A stretch of 64,000 nt of DNA from a virus (Duplodnaviria; Heunggongvirae; Uroviricota; Caudoviricetes): IMG/VR virus record IMGVR_UViG_3300049215_000070; one strand, 5' to 3'. Below the pieces are notes generated by a model. It was not told the DNA's origin. It did not search any database and saw only the letters and a list, made by a program, of their open reading frames with translations. Shown in pieces: positions 20,629 to 64,000 of the stretch; the stretch's first letter is position 1, and every line of letters starts with the position of its first letter. Made by a program: the position numbers and the translations under genes.

Positions 20629-20813
20629 ACGAGCAGCACCCGCACCAGGCCTACCTGGCGCTCACAAGTTTTACGGTATCGGTTGGTGGAGCAACAGTGG
20701 CCTGGTTATCTCAAGTCGAGCAATTTTTGCGTATAGGATCAAGCATGATTGCCATTGTTGCGGGTATCACCTCGATCGTCTACTACGGCAAGCAGAACAA
20801 ATGGTGGAGGTAG
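20625..20813 (+). CDS. holin-like small membrane protein (2 predicted TM, 62 aa)
   Basis: ATGA coupling. Hydrophobic stretches AYLALTSFTVSVGGATVAWL and IGSSMIAIVAGITSIVYYG. Sits directly upstream of the endolysin. Confidence 0.5.
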   Translation: MNEQHPHQAYLALTSFTVSVGGATVAWLSQVEQFLRIGSSMIAIVAGITSIVYYGKQNKWWR

Positions 20814-20814
20814 T

Positions 20815-21357
20815 ATGTCAGCCTTCGACGTTGCATTTGAACAGCTCATCGGCATTGAAGGAAGATACTCCAGCGACGAGTCCGACCCGGGCAACTGGAC
20901 ATCAGGCAAGGTTGGAACCGGAGAGTGTCGTGGCACTATGTACGGGATCTCTGCAGCAGCGTACCCAAACCTGGATATTGCGGGGCTTAGTCTCGCCAAA
21001 GCCAAGTCAATCTATTTCACTGACTACTGGAGCAGGCTCCGGTGCTCAAACTTTCCCGATGCCATAGCGATTGCGCTTTTCAAGGAAGGCGTAAATCTTG
21101 GGGTTGAGGGCGCAGCGAAAGCGCTCCAGCGCAGCTTAAAAGCCACCGTCGACGGCAACATCGGGCAGCTGACAATTGGCCTTGCCACGTCCAAGGCACC
21201 GAAAGACTGCCTCACCGATTTCCTGACGCAGTGCGCTTACGATTACACGCAAATGGAAAATTTCAAGATTGACGGCAAGGGCTGGCTGTCGCGCGTCATC
21301 AAGACCGCGGTTGAGTCTACGCTTACCGGCAACGAGCTTATGGAGCTTAAAGCGTAA
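20815..21357 (+). CDS. endolysin, glycoside hydrolase family 108-like with C-terminal peptidoglycan-binding region
   Basis: AFEQLIGIEGRYSSDESDPGNWTSGKVGTGECRGTMYGIS matches the GH108 N-terminal signature. GGAGG RBS. Confidence 0.7.
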   Translation: MSAFDVAFEQLIGIEGRYSSDESDPGNWTSGKVGTGECRGTMYGISAAAYPNLDIAGLSLAKAKSIYFTDYWSRLRCSNFPDAIAIALFKEGVNLGVEGAAKALQRSLKATVDGNIGQLTIGLATSKAPKDCLTDFLTQCAYDYTQMENFKIDGKGWLSRVIKTAVESTLTGNELMELKA

Positions 21358-21757
21358 ATCTCAGCAAGTACGCCTTCATCGAATCCAGAATCTCTGGTCG
21401 ATCCCTGGTTGCGCCAAGAACCAGGCTGCACTGCGAACAAAGCAGCCCACGGATAACACCGCTGGCGTGGAAATGGTCCACATGGGGCGTATCGTCCTCA
21501 GTGGTAAAATGGTTGGGGCAGATGGCGCATTTCCCCCCTTGGGATTGGAGCATGTCATTGTACTGCTCAGGGGTGATGCCCCACTTCCTGCGCCTGTGAG
21601 CCGCACTGAAGAACTCGGGTCCTTTTCTTGCGCGGTAAGCAAAATCCCAGGCTTTCCTGCACTTTTTACATGCGGTCTGAAGCCCGTCTTTCATTTTTTT
21701 GGCGCGGTTAAATTCAGAATGCGGCAGATCACTCTTACACCCAGAGCAGTATTTCAT
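21347..21757 (-). CDS. endonuclease VII-type HNH (homing) endonuclease, third copy
   Basis: KCAICPNHFTTEDDTPHVDHFHASGVIRGLLCSQCSLVLG. Start taken at MKYCSGCKS. Convergent with the endolysin (11-bp overlap), divergent with the holin. Confidence 0.75.
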   Translation of the reverse strand: MKYCSGCKSDLPHSEFNRAKKMKDGLQTACKKCRKAWDFAYRARKGPEFFSAAHRRRKWGITPEQYNDMLQSQGGKCAICPNHFTTEDDTPHVDHFHASGVIRGLLCSQCSLVLGATRDRPEILDSMKAYLLRFTL

Positions 21758-22205
21758 GGGAATTTTCGACACAGTTATCGCTCCAATTGCCAGTATAATA
21801 AATCGTATTATACCTGACAAAGCAGCCGCAGCCGCTGCAATTGCACAACTCAATCAATTGACCCTGCAAGGCCAACTCCAAGAGGAACTGGTCCAGCTGC
21901 AGTCTGTCACGGTCAATCAAACCGACGTCAACAAAGTAGAGGCTGCTAGTCCTAGCATGTTTGTCGCTGGTCCTCGCCCCGCTATAATGTGGGTGTGCGC
22001 ACTTGCTCTGTTTTACCAGTACCTAGTGAGGCCAATAGCCACTGGATTGGCGTTAATTGCATCGCATCCAATTCCCGCGCCAGGGCTCCCAGGAATAGAC
22101 GACAACCTGTACCAACTTATGTTCGCGTTGCTTGGCATTGGAGCGATGCGTTCTTACGACAAAACAAAAGGAACAGAAACAAAATCAGTTTCTTTTTTTA
22201 AATAG
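21747..22205 (+). CDS. holin (3-TM type; MGIFDTVIAPIA... N-terminus)
   Basis: Three hydrophobic segments. N-terminal motif recalled from 3-TM holins of Gram-negative phages. Adjacent to the endolysin. Confidence 0.5.
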   Translation, partial: QYFMGIFDTVIAPIASIINRIIPDKAAAAAAIAQLNQLTLQGQLQEELVQLQSVTVNQTDVNKVEAASPSMFVAGPRPAIMWVCALALFYQYLVRPIATGLALIASHPIPAPGLPGIDDNLYQLMFALLGIGAMRSYDKTKGTETKSVSFFK

Positions 22206-40553: not shown

Positions 40554-40554
40554 A

Positions 40555-40812: not shown

Positions 40813-40981
40813 TACGGGGTACCTACCGCAGGGTCGGTGTCATCTACGGTGGGATCTTCATCAATAAACCACATGTCGCAAAAAAGGCACGGAATCATGC
40901 CGTTTTCATTTGGCTTACCGGCTAAAAATCGAGGGCACGGGCTGGCGCACACGTTATCCGCGAACACGATAAATACCCCAA

Positions 40982-41224: not shown

Positions 41225-41319
41225 TTGGCCGCACCAATCGCCAATCCCATTACCAGACCGCACGCGACCGCGGCAATGTAAAACAGCCACAGCAGCGTCG
41301 TCTTCATGAATGGCGTCAT
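41221..41319 (-). CDS. tiny membrane peptide (32 aa)
   Basis: Perfect GGAGGA RBS 4 nt before ATG. MTPFMKTTLLWLFYIAAVACGLVMGLAIGAAK. Confidence 0.5.
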   Translation of the reverse strand: MTPFMKTTLLWLFYIAAVACGLVMGLAIGAAK

Positions 41320-41327
41320 ATTTCCTC

Positions 41328-41753: not shown

Positions 41754-41934
41754 GTCATCTCTCCTTGGTTATTACGCACATATATCCTAACACAGTGGCT
41801 GGAGAAGGCCTTAAACGAGCACAAGCTACCCCAGACCCATACCGGCATCGCCTGGGATGCCAGGGCTGAGAAAAGGCCTGCAGCAAGCGGCCTAAGGGTA
41901 CCGGCGGTGAAATGTTATGAGCGCTCAACGCCGA

Positions 41935-42405: not shown

Positions 42406-42629
42406 TTTGCCTCGAATATTTTGAGTTTGTTGAAAGCACGCCGGATCACGTACTGCCGCGCCACGCTAACCAGGGTGAATAATACCCCAATCTCGGCATT
42501 TTTTGTGAGCGACAGCGTGTTGAATCCGAACAGCGGGAGGATGCACAGGTTGGCAATGAAGTTCACCGTGTAGCCTATAGCCAGGTTGACTGCCACTTCA
42601 GTAACGCTGCCTCTTTTGGTCTGGCTCAT
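42402..42629 (-). CDS. small membrane protein (75 aa)
   Basis: ATGA coupling. Two hydrophobic segments. Confidence 0.45.
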   Translation of the reverse strand: MSQTKRGSVTEVAVNLAIGYTVNFIANLCILPLFGFNTLSLTKNAEIGVLFTLVSVARQYVIRRAFNKLKIFEAK

Positions 42630-42964
42630 GCGGTTTCCCGTTTGCGGGTGCCGCGGCGCGTCTCGATCTTAGCGATGTTGGCGCGCATAATGTCCCCTAG
42701 TTCAATCTGGTACGTGCGAGCGATGCGGCACAGGTAGTGCAAAACGTCCCCAAGTTCCAGGGTCAGCGCGGCCCGATCAACCGGCCCGTCGCCGCGAATG
42801 TTTTTCTTGATATGCTCGCTCACTTCGCCAGCCTCACCCACAAGCCCCAGCGTCATGATTGCTAGCTCGCGCAGCGAATCTTCAGCGGTCGCGACCTTAC
42901 GAGTCCATCCCGCTTCGACCCAGTCGCAGAAGTTTTCAACAGTTATGTCCTGATAGGGTTGCAT
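42626..42964 (-). CDS. mazG: MazG-like nucleoside triphosphate pyrophosphohydrolase
   Basis: LGLVGEAGEVSEHIKK and ELGDVLHYL, the hallmark MazG EEXX(E/D) motifs. Confidence 0.7.
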   Translation of the reverse strand: MQPYQDITVENFCDWVEAGWTRKVATAEDSLRELAIMTLGLVGEAGEVSEHIKKNIRGDGPVDRAALTLELGDVLHYLCRIARTYQIELGDIMRANIAKIETRRGTRKRETA

Positions 42965-43348
42965 TCAAATCTCCGTATTGAGCAGCTCTCGGTCGAGATC
43001 CACGCCAGCGAACTGCGGCAACAACCGTGGAATTGCGGCAAGCGCCGCATTGTAGAATTCGTTGAATTCGTTCTGGTCCATCTTGGCCCAGCTTATTGAC
43101 ACCGGCTTGAAAGCTACCTTGTCACCTTCAAGCTGTATGCTGTCGACGTACCCGGCCTGCACCATTACCGCAAACCTCAGCGCCTCTTGACTGAGATACT
43201 TGTCCTGGTTGGAAAACACCAACCGAAGGAGACCAAAAAACTTGCGATGATGGCCGGGGTTGCGATCCTTCTTGCACGTGGCACGAACCACCTCCCCGGT
43301 CCCCAGCGCCGCTATGTACTCCTCGCCAACGCCGTCAATCGGCTTCAA
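42965..43348 (-). CDS. phage protein of unknown function (DUF1367-like)
   Basis: NPGHHRKFFGLLRLVFSNQ resembles a family recalled from lambdoid phages. Confidence 0.4.
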   Translation of the reverse strand: MKPIDGVGEEYIAALGTGEVVRATCKKDRNPGHHRKFFGLLRLVFSNQDKYLSQEALRFAVMVQAGYVDSIQLEGDKVAFKPVSISWAKMDQNEFNEFYNAALAAIPRLLPQFAGVDLDRELLNTEI

Positions 43349-43368
43349 TGTGCCGCCGAGCGTTTTTG

Positions 43369-43587
43369 TCAGGTAGATGTCGATGGCGTCACCTCGTACG
43401 TGCCAATTTCAGTGACGCGCACCTCGCGATTTCGGTTGTCGATAAACGCGTCGCATTCTTGCGCGCCATCAAACTCATACGGTGGCTCGTGAAAATAAAT
43501 CTGCAATACTCCTGGTTTCGCGGTATGCCGGTAGCAATCCAGCTTGCGCGGGCACATTCCACCAAAGCACATCGAGATGTCAGGCAT
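43369..43587 (-). CDS. small Cys-containing hypothetical protein (72 aa)
   Basis: ORF in the gene train. Confidence 0.4.
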   Translation of the reverse strand: MPDISMCFGGMCPRKLDCYRHTAKPGVLQIYFHEPPYEFDGAQECDAFIDNRNREVRVTEIGTYEVTPSTST

Positions 43588-43757
43588 TACAGCACCAAAC
43601 CTGAGGCCACGCCTTCCGCTTCTAAGACGCGAAGGTCATTTGCGGCATCAGACACACCGTGCCAGTCGGCCACCTCGGTCTTGTGCTTAAGGTATTCGAT
43701 CAAAGCGTCTCGGGCGGCAAAGTACTTGTCGACGTTGGTAAACACGTTAGATGCCAT
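43587..43757 (-). CDS. small hypothetical protein (56 aa)
   Basis: Internal ATG (MASNVFTNVDKYF...) of ORF 43587..44021. Confidence 0.35.
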   Translation of the reverse strand: MASNVFTNVDKYFAARDALIEYLKHKTEVADWHGVSDAANDLRVLEAEGVASGLVL

Positions 43758-44034
43758 CGGTGGCCTCCGTTTGCTTTTGGAGTGCGGCCCAGGCTGCTGC
43801 CTCTTTTCGCTGCTCTGCGCCACGTTGCTGTCGCTCGCGCAGTCGGATATACCAAAAAGCTCCCCAGGAGTTTCGACCTTTGGCGCGTGCCTTAGGGGTT
43901 GGTCGGCGATAGGTGTGCCCTTCGCGGTCGACCACGTAATCGAACTGGCCCTCGGCAGGAGTTGGTTTGCCGTCGGTCCCGAGAGCCATTCTTGGCACCA
44001 CAACGAGTTCTTTGGAGACATGCAGATAATTCAC
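43747..44034 (-). CDS. basic hypothetical protein (95 aa)
   Basis: First gene after the predicted minus-strand terminator. Confidence 0.4.
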   Translation of the reverse strand: MNYLHVSKELVVVPRMALGTDGKPTPAEGQFDYVVDREGHTYRRPTPKARAKGRNSWGAFWYIRLRERQQRGAEQRKEAAAWAALQKQTEATDGI

Positions 44035-44059
44035 AAACGCGCCTCGATAAATTTAGCAA

Positions 44060-44102
44060 TTTGCGCAAAAGACAAGCCGCTGTCGTTTTTTATTGCCAGC
44101 GG
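44060..44102 (-). terminator. candidate rho-independent terminator (minus strand) after the SSB-like gene
   Basis: Minus-strand read CCGCTG-(15-nt loop)-CAGCGG followed by CTTGTCTTTTGCG. The loop is long. Confidence 0.3.
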
Positions 44103-44116
44103 TACAGGACGCTATA

Positions 44117-44848
44117 TCAAAACGGTATACTGGGATGACCAAACGCCGGGTCATCATCGCCAAAATCGTCATCGCTTCCCGGCTCCCGAGCGCCAGGCTT
44201 TTTCGCGTCGAGCGGCTTGCCGTTTTTCTTTGTCGTGATCCGGTTGTCGATCTTTTCGCGAAGAAACTTGGGCAGCTTCTGGTAGACGCTGTCGTCCGGC
44301 TCGTCCGCGTTGAACGTCAGCAACGGGTTGTGAGGCTCAGCGGATATCGTTCCCGCAACGATTCCATCCTGCTGAATCTTCAGGATCTTGCCAGCGCTGG
44401 AGATGTTGGCGTAGGTTTTGTCGCCCTTCGTCTTGTGGATCACGCCAAGGTTGCACACCTTGCCCAGCAGCGAGGTAACGTCAAACTCCTCGCCCTCTTC
44501 CTTGGTAAATTCCTTGCCGCGCCAATTCGATATAAACGGCCCCAGGTTCGACTTATCGCCAATGTTGAGCGTAAACTCGCGCCCAATAATGGCAGGTCCC
44601 TTGACCTTCTCGCCGTTCTTTTCGTACTCGATCTGAATGTCGGGTATCTCAAAGCGTAAGTAAACCTTTGGCTGCTCCTTGGTCTCGCCGTCGAATGTCA
44701 CGGCCTGAATGCCGAGGTAGTAAACGCCCACGCAGATCGCGAAGTGCGTGCCAGCGGGGACCAGTTCGAAATCTTTCCCGCTGCTTTTTGAAGATGCTTT
44801 GATCGGTGCGTGTGCCACTATGGTTGTTCCTCGTATGTTCGTAGCCAT
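44117..44848 (-). CDS. ssDNA-binding-like protein (DUF669-like) with acidic C-terminal tail ending ...DDDPAFGHPSIPF
   Basis: C-terminal acidic tail ending IPF mimics the bacterial SSB DDDIPF tip. N-terminal region resembles the phage DUF669 family. Confidence 0.5.
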   Translation of the reverse strand: MATNIRGTTIVAHAPIKASSKSSGKDFELVPAGTHFAICVGVYYLGIQAVTFDGETKEQPKVYLRFEIPDIQIEYEKNGEKVKGPAIIGREFTLNIGDKSNLGPFISNWRGKEFTKEEGEEFDVTSLLGKVCNLGVIHKTKGDKTYANISSAGKILKIQQDGIVAGTISAEPHNPLLTFNADEPDDSVYQKLPKFLREKIDNRITTKKNGKPLDAKKPGAREPGSDDDFGDDDPAFGHPSIPF

Positions 44849-44923
44849 GTAAAATATTCGGGATCATCTGCGAGCATGCGCTGCTCGTCTTTTTCTGCCT
44901 GATGCCAGGTCGCGTCGTTGTAA

Positions 44924-45192
44924 TCATCCATCGGGTCCATTGCCTTTCACTCCTGCCCATCGGCGTGTTACGCCATCGTACTTACTAGCAGTCTCAGATA
45001 TAGGACCAAACTGCAACTCCATTTCTGTGATGAGTTTCGCTTTTTTTGCTGACTCCTTTTCTTTGGAGTGAGATTTACGCTGGCTGGTTATGGTCGTCGG
45101 TATCAAGCTGGTGCCGTCCGGTACCCATAGTGACGCAAAATGGCCGCGGCACTGACTGACGGTTTTCTTGTGAAAGTCTGTGCGTGCCATTA
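44924..45192 (-). CDS. hypothetical protein (88 aa)
   Basis: TAATG coupling to the upstream gene. Confidence 0.4.
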
Positions 45193-45720
45193 GATTTCCG
45201 TCATGTGCGCGTAAAGTTTGGCGGCGTGCTGCCGAGGGAATTTCTTGTTGCGGGCCGCAAATATTGTCACACCGGCCTCCTTGCACATGTTGACTTTCGC
45301 GAGCAGACTGAACTGACCCCAAGAGTAATGGATTGACTTCCTGTCCACCTTGACCTCGTTTTCGGGGTCTAGGCTGCCTTTCGCCGCAATTCGCTTGGCA
45401 AACATGTCAGCCATTCGCAGCGACCTATCAGCTTCGCGATGAACCATTACGTAGTACCTAAATCCCATAACCTCATCGCTAAAAGTCGGCGTAATTACCA
45501 CTTTTTCGTTAACGATAACGCTGTCTAGCAGGTGCTCTCGGATGTACTCGTGATTTGATTTTTCGACAGGAGAGCACCTGAAAAATCTCCATGATGCGAC
45601 GTAGTACTCAGAAAAATCTTCCCCGGTGTAATTGATTTGCTCAATCCAGGGTTTGATGTGCGTTGGTGTGTATGCCAATTCGTTTACCTCATGTGGTCCA
45701 TAATCAGCCTCGCACAGCAA
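45190..45720 (-). CDS. hypothetical protein (176 aa), first gene of the leftward operon
   Basis: Starts adjacent to the divergent regulatory region. Confidence 0.5.
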   Translation of the reverse strand: MLCEADYGPHEVNELAYTPTHIKPWIEQINYTGEDFSEYYVASWRFFRCSPVEKSNHEYIREHLLDSVIVNEKVVITPTFSDEVMGFRYYVMVHREADRSLRMADMFAKRIAAKGSLDPENEVKVDRKSIHYSWGQFSLLAKVNMCKEAGVTIFAARNKKFPRQHAAKLYAHMTEI

Positions 45721-52613: not shown

Positions 52614-52814
52614 GCTGCGCGTGATCGCTGTCTGTCTTTGGTTTACGGGCAATCCCCAGGCCGCGCTGTGGTGCTTTTTGTTGCAATGGGTCTGATGGGG
52701 ATAAAAGAAAACCCGGGTCCATGGGGAAATGGCCCGGGTTATTCGTACCGCTCGACTGGCGGCGTCTCAGGTGGGATGCTGCAGCGAGTACCATTGTATC
52801 ACAAGGGGAATTTG

Positions 52815-54467
52815 ATGACGATTACAATTGGCGCCGCCGACCTGGCCGCATTGAACGCCGGGCAGCCCGTTACGCTGCAGGGCGCCACGGTTCCGAAGCC
52901 AAACCCGCTTACTATATCGGGATTTTCACCAAATACGGGCGGCATCGGCACGCAGTTCGTCATTAACGGCACCGGATTTACGGGTGCCACGGGCGTCAAG
53001 ATCGGCGGATTGACTTTCCCGCCTACCAAGATCGTCTCGGATTCGCAACTAGTAGCCACCGTCCCCGCGGGCGCGGTAACCGGCAACATCGCGGTTTTGA
53101 ACGCGACCACCACGGCATTCGATAACAGCCTGTTTGCGGTGACCGCAGTGGCTGCGCCGCCGCCGGTCACGACGCCTCCTGTAACAACGCCGCCGGTCAT
53201 CCCGGGCAGCGGATTGACGCCGAGCACCAGCGTCCCGGCGCGCACGATTACGCCGCTGACGCCGCCCGCTGGCATGAAGTCGATTACTGTCAAGGGCAAG
53301 GATTTTGTCGACGGCAACGGCAACGTCGTGGTGCTGAATGGCGTGAACCTTACGGGCTTAGAGAACACCGCGATCCAGGGCTGGGACGGCTCGAATTATT
53401 GGGGTGATTCAGGATTCCCCGGTCTGCCGCCGGTTGCGCTTTTGAAACTGTGGAACGTCAACTTTGTGCGCGTGCCGTACAACAGCTCAAGCGTGCTTGG
53501 AACGGTGTGCGTCGACGGCACCGGCAAGAAAATCATACCCGCCGACCCTGCAGGCATTTACTTCAGCATCATGGACCAGATGATGATGACGTACACCGCC
53601 GCCGGTCTGTACATCGAGTTGGAGGAGCACTGGAACGCGCCGTTTCTGAAGACCATTCCTGGCTACCCCAATGGGGCGTTTCTTGCTCCCGAGGGGCAGG
53701 GGCAGTTTTCCGACGCGCAAACAAGTGCGCCCGCGGCGGCTCAGCTCGCGCAGCGATACAAGAATTTCAAGAACCTTTTGATGGGCTGCTTCAACGAGCC
53801 TGACCTGGACGGCTTTGGTCCGACGGTTCCGGCGGACGTAGGAGTTTGCCAGCGGGACGGCGGCACCTGCGCGCGGTTCATCAATAACACCGACGCCGGG
53901 GCGGATTACACCATCACCGAGACCTGGGAGGTGTGCGGGTTCCAGACAAAAATCAACGCGATACGGAACGCCGGGTTCACTGGGCCGATATCGGTATCAG
54001 ACCGCAACTGGGCGCAAGACTTGTCCGCGTGGCTTAAGTACAAGCCCACCGACCCATTGAACAACATATTCGCCGACTGGCATTTTTACCCGGACAACGG
54101 GCAGCCGTTCAACTCCGCGGCGTACGCTCTCGGTAACTTTGGCGCGCCAGGGTCACAGAGCGCGACATCCGGCGTCACCGGTACGTGTTACGAGTGGGCG
54201 CAAAACATCCTGGCCGCTGGGTACCCTGTGTTCATCACCGAATACGGTGGTCAGAACAGCGCGGGCAGCCCGCCGGATAACTTCGTGGCCGGGGCGCTGG
54301 CGTTTGCCAAGGCAAACGGCATCAGCACCGCCGCCTGGGCGTTCTGCGTCACCGGCTCGGCGAACAACAACCTGCTGAAGAACACCAACGGCGACCCGTG
54401 CGACGGCTTCCCGCTTCAGGTAAAGGCCTACCTGACCAGTTTGCCGCCCGTAGCATATAGCAGTTGA
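52815..54467 (+). CDS. IPT/TIG domain + Pro/Thr linker + glycoside hydrolase family 5 domain: putative polysaccharide depolymerase
   Basis: N-terminal Ig-like region (ISGFSPNTGGIGTQFVINGTGF). PPPVTTPPVTTPPV linker. GH5 catalytic motifs GCFNEPDLDG (acid/base NEP) and FITEYGG (nucleophile). AAGGGG RBS. No signal peptide. Confidence 0.65.
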   Translation: MTITIGAADLAALNAGQPVTLQGATVPKPNPLTISGFSPNTGGIGTQFVINGTGFTGATGVKIGGLTFPPTKIVSDSQLVATVPAGAVTGNIAVLNATTTAFDNSLFAVTAVAAPPPVTTPPVTTPPVIPGSGLTPSTSVPARTITPLTPPAGMKSITVKGKDFVDGNGNVVVLNGVNLTGLENTAIQGWDGSNYWGDSGFPGLPPVALLKLWNVNFVRVPYNSSSVLGTVCVDGTGKKIIPADPAGIYFSIMDQMMMTYTAAGLYIELEEHWNAPFLKTIPGYPNGAFLAPEGQGQFSDAQTSAPAAAQLAQRYKNFKNLLMGCFNEPDLDGFGPTVPADVGVCQRDGGTCARFINNTDAGADYTITETWEVCGFQTKINAIRNAGFTGPISVSDRNWAQDLSAWLKYKPTDPLNNIFADWHFYPDNGQPFNSAAYALGNFGAPGSQSATSGVTGTCYEWAQNILAAGYPVFITEYGGQNSAGSPPDNFVAGALAFAKANGISTAAWAFCVTGSANNNLLKNTNGDPCDGFPLQVKAYLTSLPPVAYSS

Positions 54468-54520
54468 CCCTGCTACTTGGGCGTGCCATGATCCGTCCCA
54501 GGTAACCACTGGAGACGGAC

Positions 54521-54904
54521 ATGACAAATCAGGATCAGGTTAATTTTTTCAAAGAAATTTTTAATCATGCGTACGCTGCCGGTGTATCAGCCGCTGACGC
54601 CGCCCAAGTCGATACCATGCGCGTTATCGAGACAGACGTTCTGGGAAGGACTCTCCCGGGTGCGGTGCCGTCCGCCCCTTTCGAGCCGTGCGGATTTGCC
54701 TGGGTGAACATCAAAGGCACCACCGCCTTCGCTCGCTGGGTCAAAAAGGAAGGCTACTTCCGCAAGGCGTACGGCCCCGGGCTGCAGTACTGGGTGAGCT
54801 ACGGTGAGCAGTCGATGGGCCGGAAAGAGGCGTTTGCTGAGGCGTTTGCCAAGATTCTGCGCGATAACGGGATCGAGGCCAGCACGGGCAGCAGGATGGA
54901 TTGA
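54521..54904 (+). CDS. hypothetical protein (127 aa)
   Basis: ORF with upstream GGAGACGGAC. Confidence 0.45.
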   Translation: MTNQDQVNFFKEIFNHAYAAGVSAADAAQVDTMRVIETDVLGRTLPGAVPSAPFEPCGFAWVNIKGTTAFARWVKKEGYFRKAYGPGLQYWVSYGEQSMGRKEAFAEAFAKILRDNGIEASTGSRMD

Positions 54905-54973: not shown

Positions 54974-55216
54974 ATGAGCGACCAGAACCGAATCGAAGAA
55001 CTACAGCAAGCCCTTGAAGCCGAACTTGCCGCCAAAGTTGTGCAGGTGAGCGTCAAGAACGTCTACGGCAACCTGATGGTGTACCCCGCCAACCAGGTCG
55101 CGCATGACTTGGCCGACCTGCTGGGGGTCAAAACCTTCACCAACAAGGCTCGCGACCAGCTGAAGAAACTGGGCTACGAGTTTGTGAGAGTAAACAACGA
55201 CGGGGTGAAATTATGA
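54974..55216 (+). CDS. hypothetical protein (80 aa)
   Basis: GGAG RBS. Confidence 0.45.
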   Translation: MSDQNRIEELQQALEAELAAKVVQVSVKNVYGNLMVYPANQVAHDLADLLGVKTFTNKARDQLKKLGYEFVRVNNDGVKL

Positions 55217-55331
55217 AAAAATACATTTTTTTGCCAACGGTCGCGCCTATAGCCGCGCCGTTTGGATGCCGGGTGTTGAGCGTACTTGCGAGCGCAAACG
55301 ATAATACATCAAAGGAAAATGAGACAAACAC

Positions 55332-55892
55332 ATGAAATACGAATTTACTGGTGAGACGAAAGATTTTAACGGCATCACGCTGAAACGTATTCGCGCGGTA
55401 ACCGCCTTTGGCGCTATCGCGGTGGGTACCGTTGGCGGATGGATTCAAAGCGAAAATAACCTGGAGCAGGTCTGCGGCAATGCGTGGGTCTACGGCGATG
55501 CGTGGGTCTACGGCGATGCGCGGGTCTACGGCGATGCGCAGGTCTGCGGCGATGCGCAGGTCTACGGCGATGCGCAGGTCTGCGGCGATGCGCAGGTCTA
55601 CGGCAATGCGTGCGTCTACGGCAATGCGCGGGTCTACGGCAATGCGGATTTGCTGCTTATTGGACCTATTGGATCGCGCCGCGCGTACCTTACGGTGCAC
55701 GCCGATTCAAAGCTGTCGGTACGCTACTCGACCGGATGCTTTAGCGGCACTAGAGCGCAGCTTGTGGCAGCGGTTAAGAAAACCCACAAGCCGTCGACGC
55801 TGTACGCCAAACAATATGCGGCGGCGCTGGCAGCGGCCAAGATTTGCGTCAATGGATTGAAAATCCCTAAGCAAGTGAAGGATGAAAAATGA
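55332..55892 (+). CDS. protein with ~10 perfect tandem hexapeptide repeats ([WRQC]VYG[DN]A): predicted beta-helix repeat protein
   Basis: NAWVYGDAWVYGDARVYGDAQVCGDAQVYGDAQVCGDAQVYGNACVYGNARVYGNA. The repeats are highly regular. Confidence 0.6.
   Translation: MKYEFTGETKDFNGITLKRIRAVTAFGAIAVGTVGGWIQSENNLEQVCGNAWVYGDAWVYGDARVYGDAQVCGDAQVYGDAQVCGDAQVYGNACVYGNARVYGNADLLLIGPIGSRRAYLTVHADSKLSVRYSTGCFSGTRAQLVAAVKKTHKPSTLYAKQYAAALAAAKICVNGLKIPKQVKDEK
55478..55648 (+). repeat. 18-bp tandem repeat array (~9.5 units, consensus GCGTGGGTCTACGGCGAT) inside the CDS
   Basis: Directly visible periodicity. Minus-strand and alternate-frame ORFs here are artefacts of the repeat. Confidence 0.85.
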
Positions 55893-58743: not shown

Positions 58744-59108
58744 CCCAGGTAAAGTGCCATCAGAAGGAGTCCGGCCCATCCTTGCGCATCGAGGAAAGGC
58801 CGGACGGCCCTGTCGTTGAGATCGACCAGAACGGCGGCATCACGCTGCACCGTGCCCCGCCGGATGAGGCCGGACGGTTGTTCTGGGAGGCGGTCAACTT
58901 CAACGGGATAACGTACCGGGAAATCATCGAGAAACTCAACCAAAAAATCGACACGCTGATGCTGGACCCGTTTCGGTCCATAGTTCACGGCCCGGTTGAG
59001 AACGTCTGGCAGGCTATTCCTACGGCGGCGCGTGGCAAGATGGTGCGCGCGGACGTTCACGCGGTGCTAGATGCAATCAACCAGCTGGCAATCAAAGAGA
59101 TTCAATGA
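58740..59108 (+). CDS. hypothetical protein (122 aa)
   Basis: ATGA coupling. Its 3' end equals window positions 1..115. Confidence 0.5.
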   Translation: MTQVKCHQKESGPSLRIEERPDGPVVEIDQNGGITLHRAPPDEAGRLFWEAVNFNGITYREIIEKLNQKIDTLMLDPFRSIVHGPVENVWQAIPTAARGKMVRADVHAVLDAINQLAIKEIQ

Positions 59109-59587
59109 TACTTCAGGATGTCATAGACTTCGCCGCGGGAAGCTTCGACTGCGTTATGGGTTACCCGGGCCGGTACGCCGACGGCAGCAAGGAAAAGCCG
59201 CGCACCGGCAGCCGTGAGTACGTCACCTTGCGTCACAGCGCGCCAACGTATGACGCCGCATTTGGCTGGTACCAGGGCAACAACGGCGAGCACGAGCTGA
59301 GCTGCAAAATGATCGCCACGTTAGAAATGGCACGCCGAAGCGTAGGCAAGATCTCGTACAAGCCTAAGCTGTACTGGCGCCATGTTGACAAGGTCGAGAT
59401 GTATAAGGACGCGTGGAGGGTCGCGCACATCCGCACCCGGCTGTACATCGATGGCGTACGCAGTTACGGCGTCGCGCAAATCAAGGAAGGCCCGCGCGCA
59501 TACATGCAGCTGGTTGTCGACAACGCCCCTAATGTGGCACTATTGACGCTTCAGGATTATGAGCAGCACACAGGAGAGACAGCATGA
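59105..59587 (+). CDS. hypothetical protein (second copy of 112..594)
   Basis: Identical translation. Confidence 0.6.
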   Translation: MILQDVIDFAAGSFDCVMGYPGRYADGSKEKPRTGSREYVTLRHSAPTYDAAFGWYQGNNGEHELSCKMIATLEMARRSVGKISYKPKLYWRHVDKVEMYKDAWRVAHIRTRLYIDGVRSYGVAQIKEGPRAYMQLVVDNAPNVALLTLQDYEQHTGETA

Positions 59588-59863
59588 TTAGGATTGTGGA
59601 TGAGAAGATTTTCAGCTTAACTAAAAATCAGTACCGGGATCTTAGATTCGAGTTTGATCAAGACCCAATTTACTGGTACTCGACCGATAAAGACTTCGAG
59701 TATTGGCTGGAAACCGTGAAAAAGATCCAGCACACCACTTACCGCGAAGAGAACCCATGAAGTACTCCTGGTACGTGATGATGCTGACCTGCGTTTCGTT
59801 CGCGCTGGCGGGTGCAATTATCTACTTTGGCGGGCTATTGATGCTTGCGGCGTTTGGTGAGCT

Positions 59864-60418
59864 ATGACAGACCGAGAGATCCTTTTGGTGGTAATGAAAA
59901 GATTGCGCAAATACGCCGAAAGCAAAACTCCTGCAAGCCCAAGATTTTTGAGCATGGAGGCCGACTGGATCGAGCGCAAGATGGGAGAGCAGGAAATCGA
60001 GCGCAATACCGTTAGCGGCTTGTGCGCGCCATTTGTTCCGGGTGATGTCCCAGGTAACGCCGTAGATTTAAAGCCCGTATACTCCGAGCCAGGAGCCATC
60101 AAGCCCGTAGACCCCAAGTTTGAATGCGATTGCGGCGCCAAGGAGTGGGGCACGGAGCATCGCTATTGGTGCCAAACCAATCCTCGTGCAAACCATATGC
60201 ACGCGTGGGTGCGTTTCAATAAGTTCCCGGGGCTGATGAGGTGCATACATGGCGCGTGCCTGGCTGTGTGGGACGATGGGCAGATTTACCCGAGCTTTGA
60301 TGCATACCTCAAGTGTCAGGCTTTTCTGGAATCTTGCGAGAAAGAGTCAAAACCAGATCCCTTGCTAGAGCGTCGAGCCGCCGAAGACAAATATCTGAAC
60401 TGGGACTGGGGCTATTGA
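59864..60418 (+). CDS. hypothetical Cys/His-rich protein (second copy of 871..1425)
   Basis: Identical translation. Confidence 0.6.
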   Translation: MTDREILLVVMKRLRKYAESKTPASPRFLSMEADWIERKMGEQEIERNTVSGLCAPFVPGDVPGNAVDLKPVYSEPGAIKPVDPKFECDCGAKEWGTEHRYWCQTNPRANHMHAWVRFNKFPGLMRCIHGACLAVWDDGQIYPSFDAYLKCQAFLESCEKESKPDPLLERRAAEDKYLNWDWGY

Positions 60419-60677
60419 TGGCGGACGAGGTATCCCCGGTAATACGCCTTAGGCAGAGGAACTGCATTGGCAGCCGCGGCGCCGAGGATCACGGCTGGAT
60501 CAAGGGCTTGGCCGACAAGACCCATCACTGCGCCTTCTGTGGCGTAAGCAAGCCCGACTGGGAGCAGATGATGAATGAGATGTGGTACAGCCCGGGGATC
60601 AACAGCGCGCAGTCTGGGCCAACGGGATACCCATGAGCGAAGATTACAAAAATCTGGGAATTATATACTTAACCCCC

Positions 60678-60706
60678 TTGACATCCTTAAGGGAGTCATC
60701 TACACT
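60678..60706 (+). promoter_or_regulatory. second copy of the TTGACA-17-TACACT promoter with CCTTAAGG operators
   Basis: Identical to 1685..1713. Confidence 0.55.
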
Positions 60707-61975
60707 ATCAGCACTGGTTAGATTATTCTTAAGGATCAGCGCAGATGGCCGAAGTGACACAGTTTGAGCAGGCAATTGACGAAGCCGGGTATGGTTTTTC
60801 CCAAAAAAATCTGACCGAAACCCACGAGACAATTGAGCATTTTGTTGCGGCGCGAGGCAGGCCACTGGTCGTAGATACCGAAAATGGTACTTTGCACATT
60901 TGGGAGAATGTGCAGCAGGCGAAGGGGCTGGTGCGCGGCAGCTTGATTGTGATGGATGCCGGAGATACCCGGTTTGCACATTTCGATGGTGAGAAGATTT
61001 GAAATGAACGTCAAGCACCACAATCAGCCAGCTCAATGAATATGAAGTCAGCAGCGCGGACAGTGGCGCGCCAGGAATATCCGGCCAGCCGACAGCATCC
61101 CGATTGCCACCGTATGGTGGACTGGGAAAAGCCGGTTCTACCCGTTTTGTCACCGGGGATGGCGGCGAAAAGTGGAGGCGTCGTGTCCTCCATGCTGCCC
61201 CGACATGGGAAGCCGGTGCAATTCCGGCCTGACTTCACTTCCATAAAAGAGGTGCCCCATGGTGACTGACGCCGACCCGCCACCGATGCCGACCGCCGAG
61301 GAAGCATTGCCGGTAGCAACGGCAAGCATTATGACTAAAAAGAAGTTGCAAGAAATGGGCGTCCCCCTTGAGGTCTCAGCATATATTTTGAAGCTCGAAA
61401 CAGCTCTCAGGGAAGTTCTTTGGCAATGCCAGCATGGCCGCGCAGGGTCCGCTCCGAGTGACGGAATTGAGCGGCGCATTGAATCGCCAGAGTTCACAGC
61501 AACACAGGGTGACGGGTAAATCGTGGATAGGTTCGAAGCGTTTACGGCGTATTTGATCTCTCTTGCGAAAGAGCGCCCTTACAAAATAGCTGGTGACGCT
61601 GCATGCGGATATTGGATGGCAATAGAATCAATGGCGCGCGCCGCTGAACTTGCAATGCATCAGCCAGCAACATCGAGTGACGGAGTAGAGCATGGGAAAC
61701 CTAAAGTAAAAGCGACGTTGCAAAGTGATGGGGTGTTATACAACACTAAAACACCCTCAGCCACTCCCACGCACGCGCCCGACCCGGAGCGCATCGCCAG
61801 CCACGCCTGCGGCTACGGCTGCATCGAGCGTGGGCATCCTGAGCCTGACTGCCCCAAGCACGGCTGGGTGGTATCCGAGTGCCCTAGTAACTACCTGACG
61901 TCGCGTGATACGTGGTAGATCAAGAAATGACCTACAACCGCCTGAGGGCCTCTGAGCGCCGCGAGACCGAAATGG

Positions 61976-63580
61976 GTGCCACAACCATCTGACATACTGG
62001 AGATCGGCCTTCGGCAGGGCTTTACGAAAGCTCAAACTGCAGCAGCGCTTCGCTCTCTTGACGACTTCGAGGTCGAACGTCTGGCGTGGATGTGCCGCTG
62101 GGTTGACGCGCGTCACGCTTTCCAGGTTGTTCCCGACGGGCAATGGTCCAACTGGGTAATCCTGGCCGGGAGAGGCAGCGGCAAGACCCGCGTAGGCGCC
62201 GAGTGGTCTGGCATGCGCTGCGCCATGGGCGAGAAGGGTCACCGTCACCTGGTAGTCGCGCCAACGAAAGCAGACTTGAGGGCGGTGTGCTTTGAGGGCG
62301 ACTCTGGGTTGCTACGCGTGATACCGCCCAGCCTTATCAAGTACTACCACAAAACGCCCGCTCCTGAGATCGTGCTGCATAACGGCGCGCTGATTGGCGG
62401 GATCGCTGCTGAGGCGTTCGAGCGTACCCGAGGCCCGCAGTGGCATGGCGCCTGGTGTGACGAGGTAGCGGCCTGGGGTGAGGGCGGCAAGGCTGATCCC
62501 GAAGAGGTGTGGGACACGATGGTGATGTCCATCCGGTTAGGTCAAGACACCCGCATCCTGGTGACCACGACGCCCAAGAACCGGCCACTGGTGAAGCGCC
62601 TGGTGGCGGATGAAGACAGCGTTATGACGTCCGCTAGCACGCACGTCAACACCTCGAACCTGTCCCCTGAGTTCGCGCGCCGAATCCTCAAGTACGACGG
62701 CACCAAGATCGGACGGCAGGAGGTCTACGCGGAGCTGATTGACGCCGAGGAAGGCGGCATCATCAGCCGCAGCTGGCTGCGCCATTGGCCCGCCAACAAG
62801 CCGCTGCCTGAGTTCCATTTTATCGTGATGAGCCTGGATACCGCGTTTAGCGAGTCCGACCACGACAAGAAAAAGCAGACCACCGACCCGAGCGCGTGCA
62901 GCGTCTGGGGGTGCTTTAAGTACGAGCGTACGCTGCCCAGCGGGGAAAAGATCGAGAAGCCGGGGATTATTCTGCTGGATTGCTGGGCCGAGCACCTTGG
63001 TTTTCCGGACCTGGTGGACAAGGTCAAGAACGAGTCAGACCCGGACAAGATCCGCTACGGCAGGAACCTGAGCGCCAAGCCCGTCATCACCCCAAGCAAC
63101 GTGCCCAAGGCGTACAGGCGCATGGCACCGCCCAAGATGGGGGGGAGGGCCATTGACCTGATCGTTATCGAGGGCAAGGCCAGCGGCAAGAGCCTGCGTC
63201 AAACGCTGATGAAGGCCGAGATCAACAGCGTGGAGTTTAACCCGGGGAACGCGGACAAGCTCAGCCGGGGCCATTTCATCAGCCCAATCATCAAAGATGG
63301 TATCCTATGGGTACCCGATTCGCCCACCCCGGACAAGAACGGCAACCCCAAGTTCAGGAGCTGGGCCGAGCCATTGGTGGAGCAGCTGTGCAGCTACAGC
63401 GGCGAAGGTTCAGTGGTTCACGACGACTTGTACGACACCGCGACGCAGGGGTTGCGCGTGATCGACTGGTACTGGCTGCACCACCTAGAGCAAAAAGCCA
63501 AGAAAGCTAAAGGCGGCACCGGCATCCACGAGGACCGGCAGCCCGACAAGCGCATCATCACCAACCCGTACGCCGAGTAA
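61976..63580 (+). CDS. terL: terminase large subunit (second copy)
   Basis: Identical translation to 2983..4587. Confidence 0.85.
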   Translation: MPQPSDILEIGLRQGFTKAQTAAALRSLDDFEVERLAWMCRWVDARHAFQVVPDGQWSNWVILAGRGSGKTRVGAEWSGMRCAMGEKGHRHLVVAPTKADLRAVCFEGDSGLLRVIPPSLIKYYHKTPAPEIVLHNGALIGGIAAEAFERTRGPQWHGAWCDEVAAWGEGGKADPEEVWDTMVMSIRLGQDTRILVTTTPKNRPLVKRLVADEDSVMTSASTHVNTSNLSPEFARRILKYDGTKIGRQEVYAELIDAEEGGIISRSWLRHWPANKPLPEFHFIVMSLDTAFSESDHDKKKQTTDPSACSVWGCFKYERTLPSGEKIEKPGIILLDCWAEHLGFPDLVDKVKNESDPDKIRYGRNLSAKPVITPSNVPKAYRRMAPPKMGGRAIDLIVIEGKASGKSLRQTLMKAEINSVEFNPGNADKLSRGHFISPIIKDGILWVPDSPTPDKNGNPKFRSWAEPLVEQLCSYSGEGSVVHDDLYDTATQGLRVIDWYWLHHLEQKAKKAKGGTGIHEDRQPDKRIITNPYAE

Positions 63581-63582
63581 CT

Positions 63583-63900
63583 ATGGCAACCGAACTAAGC
63601 TTTAACGCAGTCACGACCAACGCCGACGGAAGCGCGTTGACCCTGCCGGTGACCTACACCGCCCTGATCGACACCGTCAACCCGCCCGTGAAAGCGTACC
63701 CCATCCAGGCGAACATAGCCCCGGTGGCTGGTTTGATTATCGTGACCTTTGCCGAGCTGGGCTTCGTGCCTGCCGCGAACCAGAAGTACTTCGTTGAGGT
63801 GACCGCTACCGACAGCGCCGGAACTTCTGGACCCTCCAACGAGGCGACGTTCACCAACACGGTCGTGCCCAGCGAGCCGACTGGTTTAAAGGTTGGCTGA
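63583..63900 (+). CDS. hypothetical protein, variant copy (Pro instead of Leu vs 4590..4907)
   Basis: Translation differs at one residue (…TNTVVPSEPTG vs …TNTVVLSEPTG). Confidence 0.55.
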   Translation: MATELSFNAVTTNADGSALTLPVTYTALIDTVNPPVKAYPIQANIAPVAGLIIVTFAELGFVPAANQKYFVEVTATDSAGTSGPSNEATFTNTVVPSEPTGLKVG

Positions 63901-63955
63901 TCCGGTTATGGAACTGGATCAAGGAACTATTCAAGACCTACTGAGCCGCTAAACT

Positions 63956-64000
63956 ATGTCGTCAGAATCCCAAATCCTGCAGAGCTTCGACGTCGAATCC
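63956..64000 (+). CDS. portal protein, 5' fragment of second copy
   Basis: Same start context as 4963. Confidence 0.6.
   Translation, partial: MSSESQILQSFDVES

What the first reader, a model, noticed from the sequence alone, without database searches (positions are those of the whole stretch)
52815..54467. TIG-domain / GH5 glycanase encoded in the non-structural arm
This is a 550-aa protein with an N-terminal Ig-like TIG region and a Pro/Thr linker. Its GH5 catalytic signatures are NEP (GCFNEPDLDG) and TEYG (FITEYGG). The gene lies about 12 kb from the tail genes, in an operon of small early or accessory genes. The protein has no signal peptide. It could be a soluble capsule, EPS or LPS depolymerase released at lysis, or a virion component encoded apart from the tail module.
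Basis: partly seen in the sequence, partly recalled or inferred. Interest (0 to 1): 0.55.

Follow-up and report, generated by a model that had tools for sequence, protein, structure and literature searches.

The report
Phage-borne TIG–GH5 glycanase without signal peptide
A 59-kb phage carries, outside its particle genes, an intact family-5 sugar-chain-cutting enzyme copied from bacterial slime-synthesis loci but stripped of its export signal, most likely released at cell burst to dissolve the host's slime layer; this is a confirmed but fairly ordinary kind of phage cargo gene.

Summary
The ORF at 52815-54467 (+) encodes a 550-aa protein. It has a 25-residue N-terminal peptide, an IPT/TIG beta-sandwich (about 31-112), a Pro/Thr linker (113-150) and a GH5 (beta/alpha)8 domain (about 151-542). 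Pfam PF00150 matches at E=3.8e-24, and all eight canonical GH5 residues are present, including E328 (NEP) and E476 (TEYG).

The window is a wrapped 58,993-bp phage genome. Its GH108 endolysin and holin lie about 31 kb away, so the GH5 is not the lysin. No tail gene is adjacent.

Relatives at 28-66% identity sit in at least seven other phage-like contigs. All lie among small or replication genes, and most share no other gene with this phage. The gene therefore behaves as mobile cargo.

Bacterial relatives (37% identity or less) carry signal peptides, and several lie in exopolysaccharide loci. One sits between Wza/Wzc-like and WecG-type genes in Pseudomarimonas salicorniae.

Best reading (about 0.5): a soluble, non-virion beta-glycanase that is released at lysis and degrades host exopolysaccharide. 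Substrate, GH5 subfamily and host are unresolved. The only unexplained element is the conserved N-terminal peptide, which travels independently of both the TIG and catalytic domains.

Novelty: a new member of a known kind. Interest is moderate to low.

The parts
52815..54467 (+). Complete gene for the 550-aa N-peptide / TIG / Pro-Thr linker / GH5 protein, stop codon included
   Evidence: An identical protein, P0001, is found on other metagenomic contigs.
52803..52808 (+). Shine-Dalgarno-like AAGGGG, 6 nt before ATG 52815
   Evidence: Read directly from the sequence.
52815..52889 (+). Conserved N-terminal peptide, residues 1-25 (MTITIGAADLAALNAGQPVTLQGAT); function unknown
   Evidence: It is 55-75% identical in P0002, P0003, P0005, P0089 and L091/L092. 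It occurs only at the N-terminus of these GH5 proteins in all loci held. AF2 predicts a helix at residues 7-14.
52905..53150 (+). IPT/TIG Ig-like beta-sandwich, residues about 31-112
   Evidence: AF2 strands span 33-109 with pLDDT 85-93. The domain matches multi-TIG proteins. Homologues pass the PF01833 cut-off. BFVD returns IPT/TIG hits.
53151..53264 (+). Pro/Thr-rich flexible linker, residues 113-150
   Evidence: 12 Pro and 9 Thr out of 38 residues; pLDDT 36-42.
53265..54440 (+). GH5 (beta/alpha)8 catalytic domain, residues about 151-542
   Evidence: PF00150 at E=3.8e-24. Foldseek against PDB gives probability 1.0 to endo-beta-1,4-glucanases. A profile search of PDB sequences agrees.
53796..53798 (+). 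Codon of E328, the predicted acid/base residue in the N-E-P motif
   Evidence: Invariant in alignment A1.
54240..54242 (+). Codon of E476, the predicted nucleophile in the T-E-Y-G motif
   Evidence: Invariant in alignment A1.
52707..52744 (.). GC-rich hairpin in the 202-nt spacer upstream of the gene. It looks like a terminator, but the T-run lies on the minus-strand side.
   Evidence: Fold energy -30.4 kcal/mol, z=-2.0.
54484..54526 (+). Hairpin just after the stop codon that covers the RBS and start codon of the next gene (54521)
   Evidence: Fold z=-3.6; 0 of 200 shuffles fold as well. A promoter-like site lies at 54464-54492.
20749..21357 (+). GH108 endolysin. Not part of the feature; it shows the GH5 is not the lysin.
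   Evidence: PF05838 at E=1.5e-15.
21699..22205 (+). 3-TM holin of the GTA type. Not part of the feature; it is the presumed release route.
   Evidence: PF11351 at E=1.1e-22.

Best explanation
The gene encodes an active, retaining beta-glycanase of family GH5. It descends from the secreted TIG-GH5 glycanases that bacteria encode in or near exopolysaccharide (EPS) loci.

In the phage copy, the Sec signal peptide has been replaced by a short conserved N-terminal peptide. The proposed mechanism has four steps:
1. The enzyme is made in the cytoplasm of the infected cell, from a separately spaced cargo unit that lies between the replication genes and the packaging genes.
2. It has no access to substrate while it stays in the cytoplasm.
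3. It is released when the phage's own 3-TM holin and GH108 endolysin lyse the cell.
4. Outside the cell it cuts a beta-linked glycan, probably with a beta-1,4-glucan or beta-1,4-mannan type backbone, in the slime or biofilm matrix around neighbouring host cells. This lets progeny diffuse and reach their receptors. The TIG domain and flexible linker act as a spacer or weak glycan-binding module.

Shown here:
- GH5 family membership and an intact catalytic apparatus.
- The domain layout.
- The lack of an obvious signal peptide.
- A separate lysis cassette.
- A recurrent non-structural position in unrelated phages.
- An EPS-locus context for some bacterial relatives.

Inferred:
- The time of expression.
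- Release by lysis.
- EPS as the substrate.
- A benefit to progeny.
For: GH5 identity and an intact active site.

Not the endolysin: a GH108 endolysin plus a holin lie at 20.7-22.2 kb.

Not in a tail module:
- Neighbours are small ORFs with no structural PHROG match.
- The structural block ends at 40127.

The same holds for relatives in seven other phage-like contexts:
- P0003 lies among small ORFs.
- P0004 and P0007 lie after DNA methylases and DUF87.
- P0009 lies beside a primase-polymerase.
- P0002 lies among small ORFs.
- P0089 lies directly after a primase/helicase.
- L091/L092 and L094 lie in arrays of small same-strand ORFs.

Cargo behaviour:
- L091/L092 are 60% identical to the window protein yet share no other gene with it within +-10 kb.
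- The nearest cultured phages, the Caulobacter RW group (MCP 78.7% identical), share only the structural module and have no GH5.
- GC3 of the gene equals that of the rest of the phage, so the gene is a long-term resident.

Bacterial ancestry:
- The same TIG-linker-GH5 layout occurs with signal peptides in P0008, P0010, P0069, P0090, P0104 and L015.
- 95 neighbours from 24 bacterial loci show WecG-type, GT2, GT4 and GT1 glycosyltransferases, epimerases, acyltransferase_3 and GGDEF, plus further GH5 copies, among the 25 most frequent families listed. No transporter-type utilisation-locus family appears in that list.
- In Pseudomarimonas salicorniae, two tandem GH5 genes lie between Wza/Wzc-like export genes and a WecG-type transferase.

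Fold: the closest solved folds are endo-beta-1,4-glucanases.
Against: - No enzyme assay, virion proteome or transcript data exist.
- The absence of a signal peptide rests on a hydrophobicity check and on comparison with relatives, not on SignalP.
- The host is unknown. The capsid points to Caulobacter-type phages, while the endolysin's first named relatives are Burkholderia at 45% identity. Whether the host makes a matching EPS therefore cannot be checked.
- The EPS-locus link holds for only some bacterial relatives (about 4 of 24 loci have the WecG-type neighbour). Those relatives are at most 37% identical to the phage protein, so the substrate may differ.
- The conserved N-terminal peptide has no role in this model.
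- Two phage-borne relatives (P0009 and L095) have signal-peptide-like N-termini. Release by lysis is therefore not the only route used in this clade.
Confidence: 0.5

Rival explanations
1. Auxiliary metabolic gene in the ecological sense. The enzyme degrades environmental plant or moss polysaccharide (cellulose, mixed-linkage glucan, glucomannan). It would feed the host or the local community rather than help infection directly.
For: - Virus-encoded GH5 genes are reported from peat and soil viromes, and one from a bog was shown to be an endomannanase (PMC6786970; 10.1101/2024.12.20.629349).
- Many bacterial relatives come from MAGs whose names indicate bog, fen, peat or moss.
- The closest solved folds are plant-polymer endoglucanases.
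- The non-structural cargo position fits the AMG pattern.
Against: - Without a signal peptide, the enzyme cannot reach an insoluble extracellular polymer while the host is alive. The infected cell therefore gains nothing.
- Among the 25 most frequent families next to the bacterial relatives, EPS-synthesis genes appear but no transporter-type polysaccharide-utilisation family does.
Confidence: 0.2
2. Virion-associated depolymerase encoded apart from the tail module. The N-terminal peptide, with or without the TIG domain, docks the enzyme onto the capsid or tail as a decoration or accessory spike.
For: - The N-terminal module behaves like the conserved anchor of receptor-binding proteins. In P0089 the peptide is 75% identical and the TIG domain 66%, while the catalytic domain is only 28% identical. 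P0005 keeps the peptide without a TIG domain.
- In L091 and P0003 the peptide is tethered by a long flexible linker.
- Some relatives carry collagen-like repeats, as phage fibres do.
- Ig-like and TIG domains occur in phage tail proteins.
- Cultured phages do carry GH5 domains in tail-module proteins, for example phiEaP8.
Against: - None of the eight phage contexts places the gene in or next to a structural module.
- Phages that share the peptide share no other gene in the DNA available, so a common docking partner is not evident.
- The anchor would be only about 25 residues, against about 360 residues in phiEaP8.
- No other protein of this phage carries the peptide or a related TIG domain.
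Confidence: 0.15
3. The enzyme is exported or membrane-targeted during infection through the unusual N-terminal peptide, by a SAR-like or other non-classical route. It then strips the infected cell's own surface glycan, for example to prevent progeny being trapped or to block superinfection.
For: - The peptide sits exactly where bacterial relatives carry their signal peptide.
- It is Ala/Gly/Thr-rich with little charge.
- Two phage relatives do have Sec-like signals.
- The position among replication genes would suit expression before lysis.
Against: - The peptide is only weakly hydrophobic (Kyte-Doolittle 1.75).
- It contains an invariant Asp at position 9 and a Pro at 18.
- It has no basic n-region, no twin-arginine motif and no lipobox.
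Confidence: 0.08
4. A hitch-hiking or decaying passenger gene with no function for the phage.
For: The gene lies in a loosely packed, variable region. It is absent from the nearest cultured relatives.
Against: - The ORF is full-length and all catalytic residues are conserved.
- Codon usage matches the phage.
- An identical protein is recovered from several samples.
- The clade persists in many unrelated phages at 28-66% identity.
Confidence: 0.05

Closest known systems
Virus-encoded GH5 'auxiliary metabolic genes' from peat and soil viromes (Emerson et al. 2018, PMC6786970: a viral GH5 from a bog contig shown to be an endomannanase)
   Same: Both are GH5 catalytic domains on phage contigs from similar environments. 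Both lie outside the virion modules and appear to be of bacterial origin.
   Different: The sequence of the characterised enzyme was not available here, so relatedness could not be tested. The window protein's nearest solved folds are glucanases rather than mannanases. It also has an N-peptide-TIG-linker architecture, and its bacterial relatives point to EPS loci rather than plant-polymer use.
Tail-module GH5 proteins of cultured phages (Erwinia phages phiEaP8 and pEp_SNUABM_01, Klebsiella phage SopranoGao, Pseudomonas phage Skulduggery)
   Same: They share the GH5 fold (Foldseek E from 1e-14 to 1e-12). For phiEaP8, hhalign gives 98% probability to residues 365-709. All are presumed to depolymerise a host glycan.
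   Different: These proteins are 700-926 aa long with an N-terminal region of about 360 aa, and phiEaP8's is encoded between tail-spike and lysis genes. Identity to the window protein is only 13-16%, and tblastn with it finds none of them. The window protein is 550 aa, has no such anchor and is not near tail genes.
Bacterial EPS-locus glycanases, as a functional class (BcsZ, PslG, PelA, ExoK and similar; recalled from the literature, and belonging to other GH families)
   Same: Some bacterial relatives of this GH5 are secreted enzymes encoded inside Wza/Wzc/glycosyltransferase loci. This is the position held by enzymes that trim the cell's own EPS.
   Different: The named examples belong to GH8, GH39, GH166 and GH16, not GH5. 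The phage copy lacks the signal peptide. No substrate is known for this GH5 clade.
Solved GH5 endo-beta-1,4-glucanases: SdGluc5_26A (5A8M; subfamily 26 by its name), CjCel5C (8BN7), metagenomic Cel5A (4HTY), XacCel5A (5HNN)
   Same: They share the TIM-barrel fold, with target-normalised TM-scores of 0.64-0.72 and probability 1.0. The profile search gives E from 1e-19 to 1e-16. The catalytic motifs are the same.
   Different: Identity is only about 17%. The window protein has extra loops: residues 281-294, a beta-hairpin region at 349-373, and 437-455. It cannot be placed in their subfamilies on this evidence.

Membership tests
Glycoside hydrolase family 5 (clan GH-A) | Sequence match to the family profile above the curated threshold | tested here: met
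   PF00150 scores 86.1 bits against a cut-off of 23.5, E=3.8e-24, over residues 185-511.
Glycoside hydrolase family 5 (clan GH-A) | (beta/alpha)8 barrel fold | tested here: met
   The AF2 model has mean pLDDT 83. Foldseek against PDB gives probability 1.0 to more than 50 GH5 structures.
Glycoside hydrolase family 5 (clan GH-A) | Acid/base Glu in an Asn-Glu-Pro motif after strand 4 | tested here: met
   The residues are N327-E328-P329. E328 and P329 are invariant and N327 is at least 90% conserved across 17 sequences.
Glycoside hydrolase family 5 (clan GH-A) | Nucleophile Glu after strand 7 | tested here: met
   E476 in ITEYGG is invariant.
Glycoside hydrolase family 5 (clan GH-A) | The other conserved active-site residues (Arg, His, His-x-Tyr, Trp) | tested here: met
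   R219, H272, H423, Y425 and W508 are all invariant.
Glycoside hydrolase family 5 (clan GH-A) | CAZy subfamily and substrate | not testable with these tools
   dbCAN is not available. The nearest solved structures are only about 17% identical.
IPT/TIG Ig-like domain (PF01833) | Profile match or demonstrable homology, plus a beta-sandwich fold | tested here: met
   There is no direct Pfam hit at E<=1. However, the 48-66% identical domains of P0004 and P0089 score 28 and 31.8 bits against a cut-off of 20.9. phmmer matches many multi-TIG proteins at residues 31-115. The AF2 model shows a beta-sandwich. BFVD returns IPT/TIG hits.
Virion-associated phage depolymerase (tail spike or fibre) | Encoded within or next to the tail module | tested here: not met
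   The gene lies 12.7 kb after the last structural gene, with a minus-strand block and the replication genes in between. The same holds in seven other phage contexts.
Virion-associated phage depolymerase (tail spike or fibre) | N-terminal particle-binding domain | tested here: inconclusive
   No known anchor domain was found. A 25-residue conserved peptide of unknown role is present.
Virion-associated phage depolymerase (tail spike or fibre) | Presence in purified virions | not testable with these tools
   This requires proteomics.
Phage endolysin | Peptidoglycan-hydrolase family and adjacency to a holin | tested here: not met
   GH5 is not a muralytic family (established knowledge). The phage has a GH108 endolysin at 20749-21357 and a holin at 21699-22205.
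Viral auxiliary metabolic gene (AMG) | Host-derived metabolic gene inside a bona fide viral genome, flanked by viral genes | tested here: met
   The genome is a complete wrapped phage genome with terminase, portal, capsid, adaptor and lysis genes. Bacterial relatives exist.
Viral auxiliary metabolic gene (AMG) | Acts on host metabolism during infection | not testable with these tools
   The lack of an export signal argues against access to a polymeric substrate before lysis.

The most novel reading that the evidence does not exclude
The 25-residue N-terminal peptide is a portable docking tag. It would attach interchangeable glycanase heads (GH5 domains as divergent as 28% identity, with or without a TIG domain) to the phage particle or to a host envelope component. 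This would make it a small plug-in enzyme decoration system encoded outside the structural module and exchanged between unrelated phages.
Probability: 0.1. Interest if true: 0.7.

Novelty: new member of a known kind. Interest (0 to 1): 0.35.

Why it matters
If the best reading is right, this is a clear example of a phage capturing a host EPS-trimming enzyme, deleting its export signal and using lysis as the delivery route. That supplies a concrete alternative to the 'carbon-cycling AMG' label routinely given to viral GH5 genes in soil and peat viromes, and it would affect estimates of viral contributions to polymer degradation. The enzyme is also a candidate biofilm- or EPS-degrading reagent. 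The mobile N-terminal peptide, if it proves to be a docking or targeting tag, would be the more interesting result.

Tried and rejected
Searches that found nothing:
- tblastn of the protein and megablast of the locus against 50,697 phage records gave no match.
- PHROGs gave no family for the GH5 or for most of its neighbours.
- phmmer against PDB with the single sequence gave only marginal hits. The profile search was needed to recover GH5 structures.
When padded, only 56 candidates shared words and none scored E<=10. Whether the peptide occurs on other proteins is therefore untested.
- A regex search of all held loci found the peptide only on these GH5 proteins.
- The sequence of the characterised viral GH5 endomannanase is not in the paper's held supplements.
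- Literature searches for cultured-phage GH5 depolymerases mostly returned irrelevant hits, such as 'phage GH5' as a phage name.

Host assignment:
- The capsid points to Caulobacter phages.
- The endolysin's first named relatives are Burkholderia.
It returned only bacterial relatives at 37% identity or less, and none matched at the level of the phage clade.
- The host is left unresolved.

Ideas rejected:
- GH5 as the endolysin. A GH108 endolysin and a holin are present.
- The upstream TTG start, which would add a hydrophobic N-terminal segment. GC3, the hairpin and the homologue start sites all argue against it.
Full report
**Observation**

The window is a phage genome read past its own end. 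Positions 1-5007 repeat at 58994-64000 with three mismatches, so the unit is 58,993 bp.

The ORF named in the finding, 52815-54467 on the plus strand, translates to 550 residues. Its ATG follows an AAGGGG Shine-Dalgarno-like sequence by 6 nt.

A longer ORF from a TTG at 52638 would add a hydrophobic N-terminal stretch. Three things argue against it:
- The added codons have GC3 of 0.56, against 0.77 in the gene.
- They contain a stable hairpin.
- Homologues elsewhere begin at the same 'MTI.IS' with stop codons just upstream.

**Domain content**

Pfam places residues 185-511 in PF00150 (GH5) at 86 bits, E=3.8e-24.

I aligned the protein with 16 relatives spanning 31-66% identity. The acid/base E328 (NEP) and the nucleophile E476 (TEYG) are invariant. 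So are R219, H272, H423, Y425 and W508, and N327 is nearly invariant. That is the full canonical GH5 active-site set.

An AlphaFold2 model (mean pLDDT 83) shows four elements:
- A short helix at 7-14.
- A beta-sandwich at 33-109.
- A disordered stretch at 113-130.
- A TIM barrel from about 158 to 542.

Foldseek against the PDB returns only GH5 enzymes at probability 1.0. The best are the endo-beta-1,4-glucanases CjCel5C, SdGluc5_26A, XacCel5A and the metagenomic Cel5A, at about 17% identity. A profile search of PDB sequences gives the same ranking.

Pfam does not call the TIG domain on this sequence, but several results secure it:
- Matches to many multi-TIG proteins.
- Pfam-significant TIG calls on homologues whose domain is 48-66% identical.
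- IPT/TIG hits in BFVD.

The linker (113-150) has 21 Pro or Thr residues out of 38.

The N-terminus has neither a basic n-region nor a hydrophobic core, unlike the bacterial relatives. SignalP was not available.

**The phage**

The plus strand carries the following:
- Large terminase (2983-4587).
- Portal (4963-7635).
- Capsid protein (11878-12795).
- GH108 endolysin (20749-21357).
- GTA-type 3-TM holin (21699-22205).
- SU10-type adaptor (22221-22895).
- Further virion and ejection proteins up to 40127.

A minus-strand block (40124-45720) holds MazG, a dATP/dGTP diphosphohydrolase N-domain protein and DUF1367.

From 45978 the plus strand resumes with a primase-like zinc ribbon, an AAA_25 ATPase, nucleases and an RNA ligase. 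These genes are tightly packed or overlapping up to 52317.

The GH5 gene follows in a looser stretch, with gaps of 118, 202, 53, 69 and 115 nt. A hairpin lies in the 202-nt spacer upstream, and another hairpin covers the next gene's start.

The GH5 is therefore not the lysin and not next to tail genes. It looks like a separately spaced cargo unit between the replication module and the packaging module.

The nearest cultured phages are the Caulobacter phages RW, RLK, KcrB and GB2A, with capsid protein 78.7% identical and terminase 42%. Only the structural module is shared, and they have no GH5. The endolysin's first named relatives are Burkholderia at 45% identity. I leave the host open.

**Relatives in phages**

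An identical protein occurs on other metagenomic contigs with the same neighbours. Proteins of 28-66% identity occur in other phage-like contexts, all among small ORFs or DNA-metabolism genes:
- P0003 lies in an array of small ORFs.
- P0004 and P0007 lie after DNA methylases, a GerE-type regulator and DUF87.
- P0009 lies beside a primase-polymerase and helicase.
- P0002 lies among small ORFs about 1.5 kb from a phage lysozyme on the other strand.
- P0089 lies directly after a primase/helicase, with YqaJ, VRR_NUC and a methylase nearby.
- The IMG/VR contigs L091/L092 and L094 place it in small-ORF arrays.

L091/L092 are 60% identical to the window protein over its full length. They share no other detectable gene with the window within +-10 kb. 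L094 shares terminase and portal at 42-44% identity. The gene is therefore mobile cargo among otherwise unrelated phages. Its GC3 matches the rest of this genome, so it is not a recent arrival here.

**Modularity**

The first about 25 residues (consensus MTITISAADLAALNAGQPV.IQG) are conserved in the window protein and in P0002, P0003, P0005, P0089 and L091/L092. In all loci held, they occur nowhere else.

Domain-by-domain comparison shows that the parts move independently:
- P0089 keeps the peptide (75% identical) and the TIG domain (66%) but has a GH5 domain only 28% identical.
- P0005 keeps the peptide and a 55% identical GH5 but has no TIG domain.
- P0004 and P0007 have other N-termini.
- P0009 and P0075 have collagen-like repeats instead.
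- P0009 and L095 start with signal-peptide-like sequences.

In L091 and P0003 a long Asn/Thr/Pro linker separates the peptide from the TIG domain. The peptide is therefore a unit under its own selection. I could not assign it a role, and a profile search for it in the large protein collection returned nothing.

**Bacterial relatives**

A scan of one genome per species found 98 relatives, none above 37% identity. Most are in Gammaproteobacteria (Nevskia, Steroidobacteraceae, Pseudomarimonas), Burkholderiaceae, Verrucomicrobia and Acidobacteria. Many are MAGs whose names indicate bog, fen, peat or moss.

Full-length bacterial relatives have a signal peptide, one to three TIG domains, a Pro-rich linker and GH5.

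I scanned 95 flanking proteins from 24 loci. The recurrent families, with the number of proteins hit, were:
- Further GH5 copies (5).
- Calx-beta (4).
- NAD-dependent epimerases (4).
- WecG-type glycosyltransferases (4).
- GT2 (3).
- GT4, GT1, acyltransferase_3 and GGDEF (2 each).

No transporter-type utilisation-locus family appears among the 25 most frequent families listed.

In the cultured Pseudomarimonas salicorniae, two tandem GH5 genes lie between a Wza-like exporter plus Wzc-like kinase and a WecG/CoA_binding_3 transferase. The first of the two has the layout SP-Calx-TIG-TIG-linker-GH5. At least part of the bacterial family therefore belongs to exopolysaccharide loci.

**Mechanism proposed**

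The enzyme is made in the cytoplasm and has no access to a polymeric substrate there. It is set free by the phage's holin and endolysin. It then cuts a beta-linked glycan of the host's slime or biofilm matrix, which helps progeny spread and reach receptors.

The catalytic competence, the layout, the separate lysis genes, the non-structural position and the EPS-locus ancestry are shown. The timing, the release route, the substrate and the benefit are inferred. I put this reading at about 0.5.

**Rivals**

- Ecological AMG acting on plant or moss polymers (0.2). This is supported by the precedent of a viral bog GH5 endomannanase (PMC6786970) and by the glucanase-like fold. It is weakened by the missing export signal and by the bacterial contexts.
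- Virion-attached enzyme (0.15). This is supported by the anchor-like conservation of the N-terminal module and by the collagen-like relatives. It is weakened by eight non-structural contexts and by the absence of a shared partner.
- Export by the odd N-peptide (0.08).
- Functionless passenger gene (0.05).

**Comparison with what is known**

Virus-encoded GH5 genes in soil and peat viromes are an established class.

Cultured phages also carry GH5 domains. Those proteins are 700-926 residues long. In the one examined here, phiEaP8, the GH5 domain occupies residues 365-709 (hhalign 98%) and the gene lies between a tail-spike gene and the lysis cassette.

The window protein meets every GH5 criterion that I could test. 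It does not meet the positional criterion for a tail-spike depolymerase, and it is not an endolysin.

It is a new member of a known kind. The points added here are its EPS-locus ancestry, the loss of the signal peptide, its mobility among unrelated phages, and the independently travelling N-terminal peptide.

**Verdict**

Interest is moderate to low (0.35). The one element that could raise it is the N-terminal peptide. If it proves to be a docking or targeting tag for interchangeable glycanase heads (probability about 0.1), it would be worth considerably more.

Noticed in passing
window 1-5007 and 58994-64000: The window wraps around a 58,993-bp genome. The two copies differ at three positions (4876 T/C, 4889 G/T, 4943 C/A). 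The identical GH5 protein is also recorded on a 106,276-bp contig, which may be a concatemer-like assembly.
   Followed up: partly
window 41935-42405 (-) and 42626-42964 (-): A dATP/dGTP diphosphohydrolase N-domain protein (PF18909, E=2e-29) lies next to a MazG-family gene. The pair suggests manipulation of the nucleotide pool. No PurZ-like gene was seen among the proteins scanned.
   Followed up: no
window 12876-13364 (+) and 15299-15736 (+): Two Endonuclease VII-domain ORFs are inserted in the head/structural block. The second resembles ORFs in an unrelated GH5-carrying phage contig (L005; 40% identity over 124 aa). This suggests mobile nuclease genes.
   Followed up: no
window 35967-40127 (+): A 1386-aa protein at the end of the structural block carries a GNAT acetyltransferase domain at residues 253-332.
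   Followed up: no
window 55332-55892 (+): A 186-aa protein is built of tandem 'GDAxVYG' repeats (PHROGs 7964 and 5070, function unknown). The repeats create a 187-aa antisense ORF at 55137-55700.
   Followed up: no
window 52707-52744: A GC-rich 15-pair hairpin lies in the spacer upstream of the GH5 gene. Its T-run is on the minus-strand side, although no convincing minus-strand gene lies to its right. It may be a bidirectional or U-tract-less terminator.
   Followed up: partly
window 54484-54526: A hairpin (z=-3.6) sequesters the GGAG and the ATG of the downstream 127-aa gene (54521-54904). A promoter-like site overlaps the GH5 stop codon at 54464-54492.
   Followed up: no
window 20749-22205: The lysis cassette (GH108 endolysin plus a GTA-type 3-TM holin) sits inside the structural block, just before the SU10-type adaptor gene, rather than at the end of the late region.
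   Followed up: partly
L015 7149-11018 (Pseudomarimonas salicorniae NZ_JALNMH010000003.1): Two tandem GH5 genes lie between Wza/Wzc-like export genes and a WecG-type transferase. The first has a signal peptide, a Calx-like domain and two TIG domains. This is an EPS locus with built-in glycanases in a cultured strain, which could be used for substrate work.
   Followed up: partly
L119 5738-7312 (protein P0089): This phage-contig protein has the same N-peptide and TIG domain as the window protein but a GH5 domain only 28% identical. Its start overlaps the stop of a primase/helicase gene by 4 nt.
   Followed up: partly
window 9239-9314 (+): A single tRNA-Met (CAT) gene lies between the portal region and the head genes.
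   Followed up: no
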